DNA of 64,000 nt from Eledone cirrhosa (taxonomy: Eukaryota). The stretch spans positions 17,794,001 through 17,858,000 of the forward strand of contig OZ024746.1 in the NCBI GenBank assembly GCA_964016885.1, given 5' to 3'. Position 1 is the first letter of the stretch, and each line of letters begins with the position of its first letter. A program made the position numbers and the translations under genes. Shown here in pieces: positions 3,036-64,000 of this stretch. The notes under the pieces are model-generated. The model had not been told where the DNA came from. It ran no database searches and worked only from the letters and a program-made list of their open reading frames with translations.

Positions 3036-5097
3036 CTATAATAATAATGAAATTATTGTGTAAAGTGCTCAGGTACACTACAACTCGTCAAAGGTGCATG
3101 TATAGTACATAGAATAGTATACAAATGTCAGGGAAGTGAATAGTGTATGAGTCATGATATACATGTGTGTATGTGTATGGAGGGGGAATATTAGGTGTAG
3201 TGTTGGCGAATCTCAGGAAGCATGGAGGTTTTAAAGGATGCAGTGTCTCGACAGCTAAAAACTGATGCAGGTAGTTTGTTCCATGCTTCAGCAACTCTGA
3301 GCGTGAAAAAATGTTTCCGAAAATCATGGGAGCTGTGCCGTTTTCTGACTTTGTTGGCATGCCAACGTGTGTTAGACACATGGAAATCAAAAAGGTACTC
3401 AGGGTTGTTGTTGACAAGATGGTTAATAATTTTGTGGGTGTTTACCAAGTCACTTGCCAAACATCGGAGCTTCAATGTATTCATGCCCAGGGAAGCAAGG
3501 CGTTCAGAGTATGGTAGATGCCTGATGGAGGGTATTCGCTTGGTTGCACATCTCTGAACAGTTTCCAGGTGGTCAATGTTCTGAGCAAGATAGGGGTTCC
3601 AGACTGGTGATGCAAATTCAAAGTGTGGTTGCACCATAGCTATATACAACTTTAAATAGATAGCAGGAGAGTGGCTGACAAAGGTCTTGCTGAGTGATGC
3701 TAAGACACCTTCTTGACAATTTTAGAGACGTGCTTCGTCCAACGCAAATCGCTGCTGACCGTAAGACTTCTTGATATTAGTGTTGTGGAGGTAGTCTGTG
3801 GACACTGGGTTTTTACTCCCAAAATGCATGGTGGTAGACTTTTCCACAGCTAGCTTGAGTTGCCAGTCTGTGGTCCATTGTTGCATTGTGTCCAGGTCAG
3901 ATTGCAGCCAAGATCTAGAGTGTTCAGGATCTGTCCTTTTTATCTCAAGGTACAGCTTGATGTCATCTGCATATTTCAGTATTGTGGCATTCTTTAAGTT
4001 GGCATCTATGTCATCAATATATGTCACAAACAAAAGGGGGCCAAGAACAGATCCCTGAGGTACACCAGATGACATCTCATATGGTGAGGAATGCTGTCCT
4101 ATAACCGTGACTACCTCTCTTCGACTGAGAATGAAGGACTTCAACCAGTTAAAAAGATCATCCTTCACACCCATTGCAGAGAGTTTTGCCATAACTCTTT
4201 TGTGTGGCACAGAATTGAAAGCTTTAGCAAAGTCGAGGTAAACAACATTCACCCATGAGCTGCCATCAGTGATCCAGGTGATGTCTTCAAGAAACTCGAT
4301 AAGTTGATCACAGCAGCTGGAGTTAGGGATAAATCCAAATTGCGAGGGCGAGATAAGACTGAGAGTTCCAGAAGTTCCAAAGCGTTTCTCTGACACAGGA
4401 TTCCATCAGTTTGGCAATGCAGCTAGTAAAACTGATTAGACAATAGTTCACAGGTGATGTGCGGTCACCATTTTTGAACAGAGGAATGACACTGGCAGTT
4501 TTCCACTGTTCTGGAGTAGAACTATTGTTCAGACAGAATTGGAAGAAGCGTGATAGCTGGTGCAGAAGGAAGTACCCACAACATTTGAGAAGCAGGTACG
4601 TAACACCATCAAGACCAGGAGAGGCATGGTTGCGTTTATTTTTAAGGTGACATTGCAGCATTGCAGGTATAAATTCCATAGTTGTAATATAATCCGATGG
4701 GGTCATCAGTAACCTGGCTTGTGTGGGGATTGCGAAGAGGACCAACTGGAGAGTGAGGCCTCTGCTTTGAGTGAACATACTTCCAGAATACCTTACTGTC
4801 AGGGCTAGTTGCTATGCACTGCTCAAATTGAAGCACTGCCTTTTTTGTCACCTGTTTGAGATGGTTGGATGATTTATTTCACTTCTTCCTATTGATATCT
4901 GATTTATACAGTTTGTACTCACATTCAGCATTACAACGTTCTTTTCTGGCAAGACAGACTGCTGCAGTCTCCCAAATTGCACTTTTGGGATGTTTTTTCT
5001 ACTTACATGGCACCGATGCTGTCCATATTGAGCTCAGGATGTTCTGGAACTACTTCAGTTTTAACATCCTGTGCCACATGAAACCACATTAACAAGG
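3036..5097 (-). mobile_element. 5'-truncated CR1/L2-group LINE, frameshifted RT pseudogene
   Basis: ORFs 4323-4778, 3722-4396 and 3191-3649 give QFGFIP, YLDFAKAFNSVPH, SGVPQGSVLGPLLF, YADD and FFTLRVAEAWNKLP; flanked by a 33-bp direct repeat (2995-3027 / 5098-5130). Confidence 0.9.
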
Positions 5098-17853: not shown

Positions 17854-18800
17854 ATGTAGATTCCAAGTAAAAGCTTCTAATTCAATCAATCAGTGTTGTA
17901 TTATATATATATATATGTTCAATATGCAGAAAAGGAACTGGCATAAATTCTATAAAATGCACACAATGCAGATCCTGGGTACACAAGAGATGTAGCGGGA
18001 TAGCAGGCAAACTAGCAGGTAGGGAGAAATATGTATGCAGTAGATGTACAGGGAAATTAGACAGTAGAAGTCGCATTGATAGACACATTTTTCAAATGCA
18101 GGAGGGCGCTATAGAAGTGGTGGATAGCTTCCGGTACCTAGGAGATCAGATTAGCATGGGAGGAGGGTGTTCCGAGGCCATAGTATCTAGAATAAGGACG
18201 GGTTGGAAGAAGTTTAGGGAGCTGCTTCCTCTGTTGACGAAGAAGGGTTTCTCCCTGCGTACGAAAGGCCGATTGTATGATGCCTGTGTAAGAAGCGCGA
18301 TGCTGCATGGTAGTGAGACATGGGCAGCAACTGCAGAGGATATGTGACGGCTGGAGAGAAATGAGGCAAGCATGCTCCGTTGGATGTGCAGTGTAAATGT
18401 GCGTGAACGACCCAGCATAAATGTGTTGAGAGAGAAACTGTGTCTGAGAGGGATAGAATGTAGTGTACGGGAGAGGAGACTGAGGTGGTATGGACATGTG
18501 ATGCGCATGGTTGAAGAAGTGCCAGGAAATGCCAGTTGAAGGAAGACGTGGTAGAGGTAGACCACAAAAAACATGGGCGGAGGTGGTGAGAACAGACCTC
18601 AGATCATTGAAGCTCACGGTGGAGATGACGAAGGACCGTGACGAGTGGAGAGATGCTGTGCTGAATAAGACCCGTCCCACCCTTGCAAGCAGGGAAAAGC
18701 GGACGTAAAATGATGATGATGATATATAAGTTAAAACAATGAAATAAAAAATCAAGTCATTAGAGATATACACAACTTACAGTGGATACCTCTGTGTATA

Positions 18801-18838
<38 letters not shown>

Positions 18839-21800
18839 ATATTTGGGGAGGGTATATTGTTATAATATTGCCAGAAATAATAATAAAACACACTCACTGT
18901 TTGGTTTGGATTGGTTTTTTCGCTTCTGTATCCTTTATATCTCCATAGTTAATTTATCTGGCAATGAATGTTTATCATTGAATGACCAACAGTGAAAAAT
19001 ACAGATATACATATATATATAATGGAGGCACATGGCTTAGTGGTTAGAGCATTGGCCTTGCAATCGAAAGGTTGTGAGTTCAATTCTCAGACCGGGTGAT
19101 GTGTTGTTTCCTTGAGCAAGACACTTTATTTCACATTGCTCCAGTTTACTCAGCTGTAGAAATGAGATGATAGGGACTGGGGTCCCTATCATTCCACTGC
19201 AAAGTGGTCGTGGAGGTGCCACGGCAAATAAGCACCCAGCACTCACTGTAAATGAGGTTGGTGTTAGGAAGGGCATCTAGCTGTAGAAATCAAGCCAGAA
19301 TTAGTCCCCGTCCCACCCTTGCAAGCAGGGAAAAGTGGACGTATGATGATGATGATGATGATATATTGTTAATGTGTTTTTTTATTTGTTTATTTACTTG
19401 GCAGATATCTTCCTGAATCTCCCAGATGGCTTTTTAATACAAAGAAATTTGGGGAAGCCAAAAAGTTATTTAACAAAATAACAACAACAAATAACAATGG
19501 CAGTGATGATTCAGTGGTGAGATTTCTTAGAAAACTTGAAAGTGAAGCTGAAGATAAGTCAAATCTTGTACTTAGTAAAACTCCTTCAAATAAACAAACA
19601 ATTGAAAGCAAGATTTACACAGCTATTGATATGTTGAGAAAACCTCGAAGAGCAGTGATTTCTGTGACCATTTGGATTAACTGGTAAATATTTTATGCTG
19701 TTAAAAATTGATTGTAGAAATTGTAAATATTTGTAGCAAAATCACACATTAGCTAGATTGTTATTAACAAAACTGCAACTATGTTCATATTGTATGCTCT
19801 GGCATATTAATATTCATTTGGGACCCCATGGCAACTTGCACCTGGGGTTGTATACCCCATTCACCCACATTATTCAGTCTCCTATCATTGAGAGTAGTGA
19901 TGATTAAGTATTCTTTTTCATGTTTTATAAATCTTTTCATTATTTCTTGAATGGATTATAAGCAGGCCAGTCATTAACAGACTATATATAAACACATACA
20001 AACAACATTAAAAGGAAGGGGTTAGCTATTAAATATGGTTTCTTAATCAATATCTTTTTAATACAACAATTGTTATTGCAAATTAGTCTATAGTGAAGGT
20101 GCAAGGCTTAGTTGTTAAAGAATTAGATTAGCAATCACAAGGTTGCGAGTTCAATTCCAAAATTGGGTGATATGTTATATCCTTGGGCAAGATACTTTAT
20201 TTAACATTGCTCTTTCTGCCAAGGGCTACAACAGATAAATAGTATCAGCAATGGAAAGACCAATGGAAACATTATTTTGACAAGTTCCACCCCACTCAGT
20301 AAGTAAGTGAGATATGGGATCTTGTTGATTTATTCCTAGTCTATATTTATCTTTAATACAACCATTTTTATTACAGGTTTGTCAACGGTATGTTGTACTT
20401 TGGAATAACATTAAACTCTGTTGATATGTCTGGGAATCGCTACCTAAACTTCTTTTTGATGACAACAATAGAAATTCCAGCCAATATTCTTGGATTTTAC
20501 TGCTACCATTGGTTTGGTCATCGTAAACCATTGTGTTTCTTCATGATATTTGCAGGAATAAACTGTATAGTCTCAAATTTTGTTTCAAAAGGTAAATAAT
20601 GTGTGATTCTTACTACTACAGTATTTGTGAGGACATATCATTTCAAAATGAGACATTGCCAATTCAAAGTGAGATTAAGGATTTCAAAATGAGCCTTTAC
20701 AATTTAAAAGTGAGAATAGGGATTTCAAAATGAGATTAACAGAAAAAGATTTGACTATAATATTTTGAAAGATGAAAGGAAACATGAAATAACATTGTAA
20801 CATCTTTTGTAATGTTAATAATACAAACTTGCTGGTTAAATATAAGTTTTTATCAGCCAAGTAATGAGGTGAGAAATTTACCATGTGTAAATACAGCAAT
20901 GTACTAGGTGATACCAGCCCTAGAGAGGTTGTCAGGTGATTGACAAAACCAGATGATCTTTTCTATCACATGTTGGCTTGGTTCATTTTTCAGCCAACCC
21001 TGTCAACTGCATGATGAAAATGGTCCTAAAAACAGTCCTCTCCATTTCATGCAGCCTCATCACATTTACATTTAACATTGCTGTACCTGTACTGGTGAGC
21101 AGATCTTTTCACCACTGTGAGTCTCCAGTTGTCATGACCCTGTGTTATTTCACTATACTTGAACTGGTGAGCAGGTCTTTTCTATCACAGAGTCTCCAGA
21201 TGTCATGACCCTCTGTTATTTCCTTTTTGAGATTCAGTTTCTTGGGAGTCATTCTTCACAACTTCATCCCATATCTTCCTCGGTCCCCCACTTCCACAAA
21301 TTCCATCTACTTTAAGTAATCAGCCACTTCTTTATACAGCTCGCTCTCTCCCTCCTTATGGTGGTTGTTCCCATGAGGCTGGAGCAACCAGATAACCAGA
21401 TGACTCTCCTTATGCATCACATGTTTATACCATTTCATTATCTACAAAATATTTTTCAGCTAACTATTGGATTCCTCTGATATTAACCATTCTTGGGAAG
21501 CTGGGTGCCACAGTCGCAATAGATGCTATTTACCTGACATCTATAGAGCTCTTCCCTACAGTAGTACGGTAGGTGTGTTTTGGTCACTCTTCTAATCATT
21601 ATATCCATTTACAACAGAGCACAAAAAATCATAAACATATTTCAAATGATGTTTCATAATATTTAAAGTTGTGAATAGGTTGGGTTGTTCGAATATAAAA
21701 TAGAATAGTTTGTGGTATTGGTTATGGTTCTGTATGATTCGAGTTCAAATCATGGTCAACTTTGCTTTTCTTCCTTTTGAGATTGATAAGAAAGTATCTG

Positions 21801-58600: not shown

Positions 58601-61399
58601 AGTACCTTAAGTAAGTAAAGTTCACAACTTTAGTCAGTGAGAGTACTGAACAATTTCCAAAAAAAAGTTTTTTTAATTATACCCTCTCCAAAAGATCTTG
58701 TAAAGAGCTAGACCAGTGGTCCCCAACTTTTTGTACTCCATACACCAACTCAACATTTCAAAAATTGTTATGCTCCTCTTTGATATGAAAACAGCAAAGT
58801 GTAAACAAATTGGTGTATAGGTGGTGCCAGATTCACAATAACATGTGGTGAAGGTGAGACAGGAGTTACTGACAGTAATGTGTACCAAAGTTGCTTTGGT
58901 GTAGGTGGTACCAGATGCACAGTATCATGTGTGGAGGAGGAGGTGAGACAGGAGTTTGTGACAGTAATATGTACCAAAGTTGCCTTGGTGTTAAAGTAAT
59001 AAGGTGAAAACTCATTAACACCATTTTCAAATTGCCCCCACTGTGGAGCATGCACCCCACGTTGGGAATCACTGATCTAGCTCATTCATTGAACTTTCCT
59101 GTTAACCCTTCAATAATATAATATTGTTAAGAAGAAAATATAAATAATAGTTATATTTCTGAGTCTTCTTTAAGACTGTGTATTTATTGCGATCCAAGTA
59201 TCTACTTTGAAGCAAACACATTTTGTCAGAATTTTCATGGTACTATATAAAAATAATCAGGAAATATCTGTGAGAACCCAATAAAGGCTATTATTTAAAT
59301 GAAGCCCTAAATATACTTCCGATACAAAAAAAAATATTCGAGAATTTGTGCGCGCACGCGCGTACTGAAGAAAAATTAACAAAACCAAAATTCCTTTCCA
59401 CAAAATATTAGCATTTTAAGGGTTGTTTATTGAAACAATCTTTTATAAAATAAAATGAAACTAAATATTACACGTTAAGTATTAAAAAACTTCTAAAAAT
59501 TCCTTTGAAATGAATTTCACTTTTGATTTAATGTTGACGATTTTGAGATTTTTCATTTAATCAACAAGAGTTCTTTTAAACAGGTTTTAATCCTCCCGAG
59601 GTTAACTTTGCCTTTCATCCTTAGGGGGTCGATAAAATAAAGTACCGGTAATACACTGAGTTATTGCTGGCCTTGTGCCAAAAGTAGAAACAATTATTTT
59701 ACCTTAAATTTTCTGGTTATTGATTTTTCTATTTAAAATCTTATTATTATATTATATTTTTAGCTTTACAAAAACATCATGTAAAGTGTGGTGGTATTTA
59801 CTGAAAGTCAATTGATGCTGTCAATCGTCGACTATCGGGTATAATTCTGATCCCCAAAATCAAAAACATATTTCCTTCCAGGTGACAAATTTTGCGATTT
59901 TGTTTAAATAACGATGCAATGTTCTATAGAAGCTTCTATCTAAATTCTAAAATGAATTGTGCGACGTAAGAAAATAAAAAAAAGATGTTAAATTAACCGA
60001 ATGTGTGAGCTCGTATATGTTGTGAACCCCAATATTTTTATAGAAGGCCTAACAACAATAAATACCGTGTTTCCCCTGATATAAGACAGGTTTTGTTTTC
60101 CCTTAAAAAAAAGCAATAGGATTTATTTTCGAGATATGGCTTATATTTTTACACAAAAAATAATAGCACAAGAGTTTTGAGAGAAGTATCATTATACAGA
60201 TGCCAAAAACAAAGGATATATATTATAGAGTTAAAAACAATATCACTAAAAGAATGTATTATATTAGTAATCAGTAAGACCGGAAATCTGCGTTTTATAT
60301 TAATTTTTCCCCCAAAAAAGGCACGGGTTTATATTAGGGGAAGCAACATAAACAATATACTAGGACTTATATTTGAAATAGTTCTTATAAGGGAAAGAAC
60401 ATAAATAATGCTATGGTTTATTTTTGGAGTAGGTATTTTAATAAGTGAAACACGGTACATGTATCCCATGTGGTTGATAACACAGGAATGAGTTGTAATC
60501 CTAAAATGGTTCTACCGTCGAGGTACTTATGTTAAAAATGTAACTAAAATATATACCGTGTTTCCGTCTACCACACCGGTTTATTATCTATTTAACATCC
60601 CCCTACTCTCATTTTCCCACTATATTTCACCGTACTAAATTCAGTTGACCGTTTATTATAATATTTTTATCCAGCCGATACAGTAAACAATGGCAACTTA
60701 TATCCCAAAAGCAACATGTGTTGTTTCATTAAATTTACAAATAACTACAAAATGTTACTTGTAGCAACAGTACAAGTTTCTCTGTTTAATTACTGCTTAT
60801 ATAATAAACAACAGCAATATTAGCCATTTCGTTTTTGTTTATCATTAACATGAGAGCAATAAGAAGTCTCACTCGAGATGGAACCGGCATAATGTATATA
60901 AACATAAACAGCTGCCACCGGCATATATAAATATACACACACGCATAAATATATATGTATCGTTACATCTTATTAAAATGACTAGTTTGAAATTGAAGTA
61001 AATTTCTATATGAGTTCAACCGTGTTTATTTATATAGAGAAATAGTAATAAAACAGTATAGAAATAAAAATATCGAGGTTGAAGTGGGGAGGAGTTATTA
61101 AATATGATATGTTTACTGAATAAATAGCTAGCGAGTAGTAGATTACGCCATTACCGATGCTTTGTTTACAAAATAAAATAATTTATTATTCAATGGTTGT
61201 TAATAAAGTATGAAAATAATGGTTAATAAGAATCTACCGGTTTATATTAATATGCAATTAAAAGGAAAATTTTCCAATTACATGGAAAAAATAAAAAAAA
61301 AACAATGGGTTTATTTTCTGACGCGTAATAATTCGAGGTCTATGTCAACAGACAAACCACAATGCCATTCAAAAGTGAAGCGTTCAAATTTCTAGCCAG

Positions 61400-61530
61400 T
61401 TCAAAGGGAAGTAAGTAACGAGAATTTTTAATTGACGTATACGTGTCGTTATTGGTCGTGGCTAATTGTAAGTGGTTGTGTATTGGCTGTTTAGTTGAAC
61501 AAGAACCTTTATCAATGTAAAATATAAATA
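61400..61530 (+). promoter_or_regulatory. Putative core promoter of the FRAT-like gene
   Basis: TATAAATA 61523-61530; two ATTGG (reverse CCAAT) boxes at 61451 and 61482; CRE-like TGACGTA at 61433; TCF/LEF-type TTCAAAG at 61400-61406. Confidence 0.6.
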
Positions 61531-61579: not shown

Positions 61580-62416
61580 ATGCCGATCAAGTTAGAAAGC
61601 ATGGGGGCGATTAATGTAAACTCTTCGAATCAAACGGATTTAAAAGATATCGAATGGTTGACTAGAGGCATCGAGGAAACATTACAGCTACATCAACATA
61701 ACCATTGTGAAACCGGTCACCATTTAAAATCGTCGGTTTCTCCTTCAGCAGTAAGTAGCATGCCGAGTCGCCATCCTAGTGTTAGTGGCGGCAATAAGAC
61801 ACATGTGCCCATGGACCACGACAACATGGTGATAGCAACGAAACCTTGTAAAGCTGCTACGGCGGCCGCTGCAGCTGCCGGCACCTGGTTACCTTATGTT
61901 TTACCGTCCGTTCGAGGAGATAGACATCATCTAAACCGAGCAAAAAGTAATTGGCGACATGGCAACTTCAATGACAACAATAATAGATTGGTTGTGAAAC
62001 GACTGAACCACAGAAACGTGGTTAGTAAAAGAAGGAAATCTTACGTTTATATCGAAGATGTTCGGACTAGAAACGGTTGCAATACAGACTACAGACATCA
62101 TCAGAAATTGCTTTCAACACAGACTTTAATTCAGGAAGCTGTACGACGGTTGTATGGATTACACAGAAACACTGGTTCTACCACCATTAATAATGATACG
62201 AACAATAACAATACAAATAGTGGCACCATAATGACTACCACCACCACTAATAATAACAGTAATAATAATACTACTTTAGGACACAATGGCCTGGTCTCTG
62301 TTGGGACCGGCAGCTGCTGTACATTACAGCAAGAACGTCAACAACAACAATTACTGTTATTTCAACAAAACAATTTTAGGGACAAATGTGAATTATTTTG
62401 CAATCTAACTGTATGA
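61580..62416 (+). CDS. FRAT: Intronless FRAT/GBP-family GSK-3-binding protein, 278 aa
   Basis: DIEWLTRGIEETLQL ~ FRAT1 EVDRLVAQIGETLQL; central PY motif (WLPYVL ~ AAPY); HQKLLSTQTLIQEAVRRL ~ GSK3-binding QQLVLSGNLIKEAVRRL; single exon as in vertebrate FRATs; TATA/CCAAT promoter. Confidence 0.85.
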   Translation: MPIKLESMGAINVNSSNQTDLKDIEWLTRGIEETLQLHQHNHCETGHHLKSSVSPSAVSSMPSRHPSVSGGNKTHVPMDHDNMVIATKPCKAATAAAAAAGTWLPYVLPSVRGDRHHLNRAKSNWRHGNFNDNNNRLVVKRLNHRNVVSKRRKSYVYIEDVRTRNGCNTDYRHHQKLLSTQTLIQEAVRRLYGLHRNTGSTTINNDTNNNNTNSGTIMTTTTTNNNSNNNTTLGHNGLVSVGTGSCCTLQQERQQQQLLLFQQNNFRDKCELFCNLTV

Positions 62417-62672: not shown

Positions 62673-63526
62673 ATGCGTGTGTGTGTGGTTTTTTTTGTAT
62701 ATATTATGTGGTTATGTTGTGTGTGTGTATATATATATATTATATTTTAAATCATTAAAAGGGAGAAAGTTGCTGGTTTCAGTAGCCATGGTAAATATCA
62801 GTATGAGCTGCACAACCCGGTTACACTGGTGGCTATATATTACATATATTTGTGTGTGGCTTGACTCATTTTTATATATAATGACTGATTTCTGAATGAC
62901 CAGTTTAACTCACAATATTATGCTGAAAGTCTGTCTTATTAAAATAATTTCCACTACAAAAATAATATCTGTGATTTCCAACAAAAATTACATTATTAAT
63001 ATTATTATTGATAATAATAACAATAAATATTTTGAAAAAAAAAAAAGGCAAAAGGTCAGGAAGGAAGAAATAATGTATATTTTGTTGGTAAATATTTTAT
63101 TTAATGTGTAAATTATAGCTGCGTTCTCTGAACGTCAAAATATCCAGTACTTGTTTACTGTCAACTATTTTGGTCCAGATATTATCACCATTATTATTAA
63201 AGTACCAAATGAAGTACCCAGAGTCGATTTTAATCAACTTTACCCTTCCCCCTAAAATTGTTGGCCACGTGCCTAAATTAGAACCATTATTATTATTATT
63301 ATTATCATCATCATACATTATTTTGTCCTTTAAAAATATGTAGATGTTTCCTTTGTCAACAACATCGTAACATACAATACACTCACACATGATAAAAATG
63401 TAAATATGCATTTATAAGTATTTATGTACTTGTATATATATATATATATATATATATGCCTATATAAGTATTTGTGCTTTGTATAAGTGCAAATATGTAT
63501 GCACATATTTATGTACTTGTATATAC

Positions 63527-63575
<49 letters not shown>

Positions 63576-64000
63576 CATATACTGTTACTGAATATTCAAA
63601 AGAAACAATATATTCAAAAAAGTTAACCGATCATTTGAGTTTTGTCTTTGTGTTTATATATATATATTTATTTATATATGTATTTCTACATTTTTCCCGC
63701 AGTTCTCTGTTTGTCTTTGTCTGGTTTGATATGTGTGGGTGGTTAGTCTCCTTTAATATGCTTCAGCGGTCACACCAGTCAGTTGTATCAACAACACATA
63801 TCTTCCACCACAACAAAACTGTTTGTCTGTGTCTAGATTTCTTTACCTTATCAACATCCCTCGTGGTTTTCTGGGAGAAAGGTTTTAGAGAAAATAATAT
63901 ATTTGTTGGTGGGGCGGGGGGTATCTCGCTTTAGCTAAATAAGCCGGCACAGTCTATGAAACGAAAGATACCTGCATCATTTTCGTTGTAAATCTTCGAC

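What the first reader, a model, noticed from the sequence alone, without database searches (positions are those of the whole stretch)
61580..62416. Intact invertebrate FRAT/GBP gene (GSK3-binding Wnt activator)
Seen: a 278-aa single-exon ORF with all three FRAT blocks in order, namely IEETLQL, a PY motif and LIQEAVRRL (~62087-62152). Known: vertebrate FRAT1/2 and Xenopus GBP are intronless, bind GSK3 via LIKEAVRRL and compete with Axin; the family is absent from fly and worm and is often called vertebrate-specific. Inferred: this apparently cephalopod locus keeps a functional FRAT arm of Wnt/beta-catenin control, with lineage-specific Asn/Thr/Gln-rich extensions and a Cys-containing tail.
Basis: partly seen in the sequence, partly recalled or inferred. 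Interest (0 to 1): 0.75.

Follow-up and report, generated by a model that had tools for sequence, protein, structure and literature searches.

The report
Divergent octopus FRAT/GBP GSK3-binding gene
This octopus genome carries one intact, uninterrupted gene that is likely a highly diverged relative of the vertebrate FRAT proteins, which would switch on Wnt signalling by binding the kinase GSK3; related genes occur in many invertebrates, so the family is not vertebrate-only, but binding by the octopus protein is untested.

Summary
The 278-aa ORF (61580-62416, +) is real. It is intact, single-copy in the searches made, conserved in octopods, and covered without a joint by one contig of a run that splices GSK3. 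It is most likely a divergent FRAT/GBP. Its Pfam PF05350 hit is below the cut-off (14.3 against 25 bits). A profile of 24 invertebrate FRAT-like ORFs found here hits human FRAT1 (E 1.3e-13) and scores this protein 29.6 bits; support beyond the motif used to select those ORFs is moderate (93 of 5000 shuffles). The two blocks best conserved among cephalopods match the family's two blocks, and the GSK3-binding block is predicted to fold as helix-turn-helix. The 'vertebrate-specific' framing fails: ant and cockroach members are already named GSK-3-binding protein in NCBI/UniRef, although a 2020 paper reads as saying FRAT is absent from invertebrates. What is new: the octopod genes are unnamed or misnamed, and they replace near-invariant residues of the first helix and turn (Leu to His, Gly to Gln, Lys to Gln). 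The PY block is weak, and the C-terminal Cys is shared with other invertebrate members. GSK3 binding and Wnt activation remain untested.

The parts
61580..62416 (+). Uninterrupted 278-aa ORF, FRAT/GBP-like, starting Met-Pro
   Evidence: Met-Pro start in 20 of 24 invertebrate-type members; one contig of run X4 spans it without a joint
61637..61690 (+). Block I (aa 20-37, ending IEETLQL), predicted helix; counterpart of the N-terminal FRAT block (a role in nuclear export is recalled, untested)
   Evidence: helix 20-34, pLDDT 83 for aa 21-30; aligns with the family block; human FRAT1 has I-x-E-T-L-Q-L at this block (printed); not significant when scored alone
61889..61897 (+). LPY, possible remnant of the family's SPY/APY middle block (weak)
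   Evidence: aligned to the profile's PY in P0002 and P0003 but not in P0008; absent in P0004; not significant alone
62027..62089 (+). Basic cluster KRRK and a cephalopod-conserved extension (aa 150-170) just before the GSK3-binding block; function unknown, the basic cluster may be a nuclear import signal (inference)
   Evidence: 12 of 20 residues of aa 161-180 identical in all four sequences of A2; not shared with the invertebrate set
62087..62152 (+). Block III, GSK3-binding ('IKEA box') region D170-L191, predicted helix-turn-helix; L177, L183, I184, E186, A187, V188, R190, L191 kept; H174, Q181, Q185 replace L, G, K
   Evidence: Pfam PF05350 E 0.028 over aa 148-193; 14 of 32 identical to FRATtide 1gng_X (counted); position table; helices 169-179 and 183-197, pLDDT 83-87 for aa 171-190
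62168..62284 (+). Asn/Thr-rich low-complexity stretch, aa 197-235, poorly conserved
62399..62413 (+). C-terminal Cys at -5 with a hydrophobic end; shared with many invertebrate members; possible lipidation or PDZ-type signal (inference)
   Evidence: Cys at -5 in 7 of 24 (0.5 expected from Cys frequency; rows are related, so not independent); absent in P0004
61451..62478 (.). Stretch covered by one contig of run X4 (likely transcript including 5' UTR, ORF and start of 3' UTR); further X4 pieces at 62753-63275, 63323-63420, 63690-63765 may be 3' UTR
   Evidence: X4 shows three GT..AG joints on the GSK3 gene that run X1 lacks; AATAAA at 63022

Best explanation
The window holds an intact single-ORF gene that is likely the octopod orthologue of FRAT/GBP; its mostly disordered protein is predicted to fold a helix-turn-helix at aa 169-197 that would dock in the Axin/FRAT groove of GSK3, displace Axin and so likely stabilise beta-catenin. 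Shown: intact ORF, one copy in the searches made, conservation concentrated in two blocks plus the start, cover by one contig in a run that splices GSK3, and a GSK3 gene in the same genome whose groove region is 38 of 40 identical to vertebrate GSK3. Inferred: family membership (about 0.88), GSK3 binding through the second helix L183-L191 (about 0.75), competition with Axin and a Wnt output as the main role (about 0.55-0.6). The replaced residues H174, Q181 and Q185 would weaken or reshape the contacts of the first helix and turn, so binding may rest more on the second helix than in vertebrate FRAT.
For: PF05350 is the only Pfam family hit by the whole protein, on the C-terminal binding part of the model, also in P0002, P0008 and P0009. 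A profile of 24 metagenome ORFs with no octopod or named vertebrate sequence (A5) hits human FRAT1 5oy4_X at E 1.3e-13 over three blocks in order and scores P0001 29.6 bits against at most 11.0 in 2000 shuffles. With the 15 pattern-defined residues held fixed and the rest shuffled, 93 of 5000 shuffles reach P0001, 1 of 2000 reach P0002 and 3 of 2000 reach P0003. With block III removed from profile and protein, 8 of 5000 shuffles reach the N-terminal score. All 8 block III columns invariant in A5 are kept. Features not used for selection are shared: Met-Pro start (20 of 24) and Cys at -5 (7 of 24). AlphaFold2 gives helices 169-179 and 183-197; FRATtide binds as two bent helices (10.1101/2020.06.18.159665, passages). 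GSK3 groove region conserved. FRAT competes with Axin for GSK3 (PMC6974163 Introduction; PMC2169372 passages).
Against: The Pfam score is 14.3 bits against a cut-off of 25. P0003 has no Pfam hit and P0004 and P0005 no PF05350 hit. The direct match to FRATtide is not significant (E 0.78), and the cephalopod profile A2 did not find FRAT in PDB at E<=10. Block I alone and the PY block alone do not score. For P0004 the score outside the selected motif is not significant (206 of 2000). The profile-profile match covers only block III (24 columns, probability 86%), which is partly circular because A5 was selected with that motif. Three near-invariant positions are replaced: L in 22 of 24 by His, G in 22 of 24 by Gln, K in 23 of 24 by Gln. 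FRAT is dispensable for Wnt signalling in mice (PMC6974163 Introduction). Axin in this genome was not looked for.
Confidence: 0.6

Rival explanations
1. A true FRAT that binds GSK3, but whose main job is Wnt-independent: it moves GSK3 out of the nucleus or alters its choice of substrates, with block I as export signal and KRRK as import signal.
For: FRAT1/2 promote nuclear exclusion of GSK3 (PMC9122323 passages); FRAT is dispensable for mouse Wnt signalling and has GSK3-independent activities; block I and the basic cluster are conserved out to P0004.
Against: No localisation data; block I as export signal is recalled, not tested; binding in the Axin groove would displace Axin whatever the main role.
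Confidence: 0.2
2. Descended from FRAT but no longer a GSK3 inhibitor: the rewired first helix, turn and new conserved extension serve a different partner.
For: H174, Q181, Q185 replace near-invariant residues; a new stretch (aa 157-170) is conserved among the cephalopod-type sequences only; the GSK3 groove shows no matching change.
Against: All 8 invariant block III columns are kept; the helix-turn-helix is still predicted; Gln at the Lys position occurs in 1 of 24 and Arg at the Gly position in 2 of 24 other members.
Confidence: 0.12
3. An unrelated cephalopod-specific disordered protein whose LIQEAVRRL helix resembles the FRAT box by chance or convergence.
For: Below Pfam cut-off; searches of 5.8 and 1.8 billion proteins found only three close homologues and no bridge to FRAT; blocks I and PY not significant alone.
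Against: Nine-residue box with eight identities to FRAT1, unique in the genome; block order, Met-Pro start and terminal Cys agree; score beyond the selected motif significant in 3 of 4 sequences; no other FRAT candidate in G000.
Confidence: 0.07
4. A processed pseudogene or chance ORF.
For: No intron; lies among repeats.
Against: Intact in several octopods with conservation concentrated in blocks; no second copy; covered in a spliced-type run.
Confidence: 0.01

Closest known systems
Human FRAT1 / FRATtide (PDB 5oy4_X, 1gng_X; Pfam PF05350 GSK-3_bind)
   Same: N-terminal I-x-ETLQL block, C-terminal LI[KQ]EAVRRL box (8 of 9 identical), same order, similar length (278 against 279 aa), two-helix binding block.
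   Different: First helix and turn read HHQKLLSTQT against LLQQLVLSGN; Asn/Thr-rich tail; below Pfam cut-off; no significant pairwise match.
Insect 'GSK-3-binding protein(-like)' records (e.g. Atta cephalotes XP_012054949.1 / Acromyrmex XP_011067508.1, Diploptera punctata UniRef A0AAD7ZUD5) and unnamed invertebrate-type members L016-L108
   Same: Met-Pro start, block I, block III core, uninterrupted ORF in the contigs used, Cys near the C-terminus in many.
   Different: They keep P-[YF]-x-x-L-Q-E-L-x-x-x-G-x-L-I-K, 14 of 24 pass the Pfam cut-off, most have a clear PY block, and many have a YDSD-type acidic stretch that the octopod protein lacks.
Xenopus GBP
   Same: Family prototype that blocks Axin binding to GSK3 (PMC2169372 passages).
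   Different: Sequence not compared here; maternal axis role untested in cephalopods.
Axin GSK3-interaction domain
   Same: Binds the same GSK3 site, as a single helix; works-like comparison for binding by the second helix alone.
   Different: Not homologous on any test here; a scaffold, not a competitor.

Membership tests
FRAT/GBP (PF05350) | Score above the Pfam gathering cut-off (25 bits) | tested here: not met
   14.3 bits, E 0.028, only family hit. 10 of 24 invertebrate-type members also fall below it, so the cut-off misses divergent members; filed as a likely divergent member, not a database-grade one.
FRAT/GBP (PF05350) | C-terminal GSK3-binding 'IKEA box' core LIKEAVRRL | tested here: met
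   8 of 9 identical, Lys to Gln; all 8 invariant columns of block III kept; name of the box from 10.1101/512426
FRAT/GBP (PF05350) | First helix and Gly turn ahead of the box (two-helix binding unit) | tested here: inconclusive
   helix-turn-helix predicted; Y171, Q175, L177 kept but Leu to His and Gly to Gln
FRAT/GBP (PF05350) | N-terminal conserved block (…I-x-E-[TN]-L-x-L) | tested here: inconclusive
   aligns and matches human FRAT1 at 6 of 7 by eye; N-terminal part without block III reached by 8 of 5000 shuffles; the 15-column block alone does not score
FRAT/GBP (PF05350) | Middle PY block | tested here: inconclusive
   LPY present; not significant alone; absent from P0004
FRAT/GBP (PF05350) | Significant match to a family profile that also recovers human FRAT1 | tested here: met
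   (partly circular for block III; residual support 93 of 5000 for P0001, 1 and 3 of 2000 for P0002 and P0003, not significant for P0004)
FRAT/GBP (PF05350) | Coding region without introns (recalled for vertebrate FRAT; no paper read on it) | tested here: met
   continuous ORF; X4 contig spans it with no joint
FRAT/GBP (PF05350) | Binds GSK3, displaces Axin, stabilises beta-catenin | not testable with these tools
   needs binding and reporter assays
FRAT/GBP (PF05350) | Orthology by conserved gene neighbours or a supported tree | not tested
   no informative neighbour among 145 ORFs scanned; no tree built, the alignable part is about 40 columns

The most novel reading that the evidence does not exclude
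FRAT/GBP is an ancient bilaterian GSK3 regulator that the literature searched here still treats as vertebrate-only. Cephalopods keep a rewired form in which the first helix and Gly turn are replaced and a new conserved extension is added, so that it grips GSK3 mainly by one Axin-like helix, with changed affinity or substrate selectivity; invertebrate members also share a C-terminal Cys signal that may tether them to membranes.
Probability: 0.3. Interest if true: 0.65.

Novelty: new member of a known kind. Interest (0 to 1): 0.4.

Why it matters
[quoted passage not shown] It gives a name to genes listed as hypothetical, uncharacterized or 'mef2A-like' in three Octopus species and Argonauta. FRAT is essential for the frog axis but dispensable in mice; invertebrate orthologues allow its ancestral role to be tested. 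The cephalopod substitutions are a natural test of which FRAT-GSK3 contacts matter.

Tried and rejected
ESM Atlas look-ups gave no answer for P0001, P0003, P0004. Foldseek of the low-confidence model (mean pLDDT 55) against PDB: 0 matches, uninformative. PF05350 search of G000 did not pick up this locus and gave one weak match elsewhere with a stop inside (E 4.24). Word-based search with aa 155-198 had only 2 candidates, so it cannot reach distant relatives. The search for related loci in metagenomes: 154 pattern matches, none confirmed. Cephalopod profile and block I peptide against PDB: no FRAT. No run is on record as RNA; X4 was judged RNA-like from splice joints only. X4 has little or no cover over 60000-61450, where X1-X3 are continuous; this is a part without cover and is not used as evidence. 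ATTGG at 61451 and 61482 and TATAAA at 61523 lie inside the X4 contig, so no start site is claimed. Synteny: 145 of 158 ORFs of 75 aa or more in the window and the next 40 kb were scanned; no informative neighbour. One search aligned the locus to itself and shows nothing. Three papers asked for by id were not held. Earlier findings of this scan: nothing.

Full report
Observation. 61580-62416 (+) is an intact 278-aa ORF, the longest in the window; shuffles of its bases give at most 138 aa. In the 3.0 Gb genome G000 a search with aa 1-200 finds only this place significantly, and a degenerate pattern for the box matches once, here. These searches score only the best candidates, so 'single copy' means within them.

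Conservation. Searches found P0002 (unnamed source, 77%), P0003 (Argonauta hians hypothetical protein, 62%) and, with a profile over 1.84 billion representatives, only P0004 in addition (99 bits; 41% identity; organism unnamed). P0002's cluster holds Octopus vulgaris 'hypothetical' (130 aa, lacking block III), O. sinensis 'transcription factor mef2A-like' and O. bimaculoides 'uncharacterized': none is named as FRAT. Across four sequences, identity is concentrated in aa 1-40 (17 of 40) and aa 161-200 (25 of 40), against 2-7 per 20 elsewhere. That is the pattern of a constrained coding gene with two motifs.

Expression. No run is on record as RNA. Run X4 is small (88 million letters of contigs) and joins the exons of the genome's GSK3 gene by three GT..AG joints that run X1 lacks, so I read it as RNA. 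One X4 contig covers 61451-62478, the whole ORF, with no joint and no other letters. This is one run of one study, and for a gene without introns carry-over of DNA cannot be excluded by splicing.

Family, direct tests. PF05350 is the only Pfam hit of the whole protein, 14.3 bits, E 0.028, under the cut-off of 25; also weak in P0002, P0008, P0009, and absent in P0003, P0004, P0005. The match to FRATtide is E 0.78 with 14 of 32 identities. On these alone the identity would be a lead.

Family, through intermediates. A pattern scan of metagenome contigs for the box gave 93 stretches; 92 showed the motif in my script; 74 of 92 also passed a FRAT-like filter, in 30 distinct cores; 18 were dropped. 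I took 24 ORFs as representatives (a 25th, L028, was dropped because the start finder gave an 8-residue piece). 23 of 24 hit PF05350 at E<=0.1 and 14 of 24 pass the cut-off, partly by construction. They share an upstream block and mostly a PY block that the pattern did not ask for. Their profile A5 finds human FRAT1 at E 1.3e-13 with the three blocks in order. Of 10 looked up, 8 were in the collection; two clusters hold named insects: termites and cockroaches, with Diploptera punctata named 'GSK-3-binding protein', and ants named 'GSK-3-binding protein-like'. The 9 ORFs looked up gave no organism names (5 in the collection), so the other members are of unnamed origin and I call them invertebrate-type by inference.

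The octopod protein against A5. P0001 scores 29.6 bits (2000 shuffles: at most 11.0), P0002 36.6, P0003 36.2, P0004 16.9. Because block III chose the set, I controlled for it. With the 15 pattern residues fixed and the rest shuffled, 93 of 5000 reach P0001, 1 of 2000 P0002, 3 of 2000 P0003, and 206 of 2000 P0004. With block III cut from both sides, P0001 scores 9.5 bits, reached by 8 of 5000. Block I alone and the PY block alone do not score, and the profile-profile match spans block III only. Unselected shared features: Met-Pro start in 20 of 24, Cys in the last 7 residues in 15 of 24 (3.5 expected), Cys at -5 in 7 of 24 (0.5 expected), with related rows not independent. Taken together I put membership at about 0.88.

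What differs. All 8 invariant block III columns are kept, as are Y171 and Q175. But H174 stands where 22 of 24 have Leu, Q181 where 22 of 24 have Gly, Q185 where 23 of 24 have Lys, K176 where 21 of 24 have Glu; human FRAT1 has Leu, Gly, Lys at the first three. These changes are shared by every cephalopod-type sequence that has the block, with a conserved extension at aa 157-170 not seen in the others.

Structure and partner. AlphaFold2 on the 25-row alignment gives a largely low-confidence model (mean pLDDT 55) with helices at 20-34, 169-179 and 183-197, the last two at pLDDT 83-87. FRATtide binds GSK3 as two bent helices and Axin as one, in a site formed by a helix and a loop (10.1101/2020.06.18.159665, passages). 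The genome has a multi-exon GSK3 gene; the stretch that I take, from recalled numbering, to be this site is 38 of 40 identical to vertebrate GSK3 rows. That L183, I184, A187, V188 and L191 face the groove is recalled from the FRATtide structure, not read here. Binding itself is untested.

Mechanism. Most likely the second helix occupies the Axin site of GSK3, so beta-catenin escapes phosphorylation, as described for FRAT/GBP (PMC6974163 Introduction; PMC2169372 passages; PMC3529405 passage). Rivals: a mainly Wnt-independent role such as nuclear exclusion of GSK3 (PMC9122323 passages), loss of GSK3 binding, or chance likeness.

Literature. [quoted passage not shown] Ten full-text searches listed no paper whose title or abstract start describes an invertebrate FRAT; only the top 5-40 of each were listed and subscription journals are not held, so this is weak. 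No supplements were read.

Verdict. A real, probably expressed, unannotated and unusually divergent octopod member of a known family. The invertebrate occurrence is already in databases though apparently little noted in print. Interest 0.4.

Noticed in passing
L016-L108 (metagenome contigs): At least 30 distinct FRAT-like cores in contigs of unnamed origin, two clusters tied to termites/cockroaches and ants; a ready seed set for a pan-animal FRAT survey.
   Followed up: partly
C-termini of A5 rows and window 62399-62413: Cys at position -5 followed by a hydrophobic end in 7 of 24 invertebrate-type members and the octopods; possible lipidation or PDZ-type signal.
   Followed up: partly
P0006 (O. 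vulgaris CAI9724285.1) and P0007 (O. sinensis XP_036359875.1): The O. vulgaris model ends at 130 aa without block III and the O. sinensis model has another C-terminus and the name 'mef2A-like'; likely gene-model or assembly errors.
   Followed up: no
L077:862-1062: FRAT-like core preceded by unrelated hydrophobic residues; may be an intron inside block III, i.e. a spliced family member.
   Followed up: no
window 19373-19684 (+): Exon-like piece with Pfam Sugar_tr hit above cut-off (E 1.4e-05): a transporter gene upstream.
   Followed up: no
window 17871-18344 (+): PHD-finger hit (E 6.3e-07); gene exon or retroelement ORF1 piece.
   Followed up: no
window 3191-4811 (-): Broken LINE-type reverse transcriptase pieces (RVT_1 E 7.3e-31).
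   Followed up: no
L008:2148-5576 (-), about 22 kb beyond the window's end: Open 1143-aa LINE-type ORF2 with endonuclease, reverse transcriptase and zf-RVT domains; a young non-LTR element.
   Followed up: no
G000:C1:144789000-144829000 (L015, L013, L010, L011): Multi-exon GSK3 gene; mRNA contig of 4909 bases in X4 with a long 3' part.
   Followed up: partly
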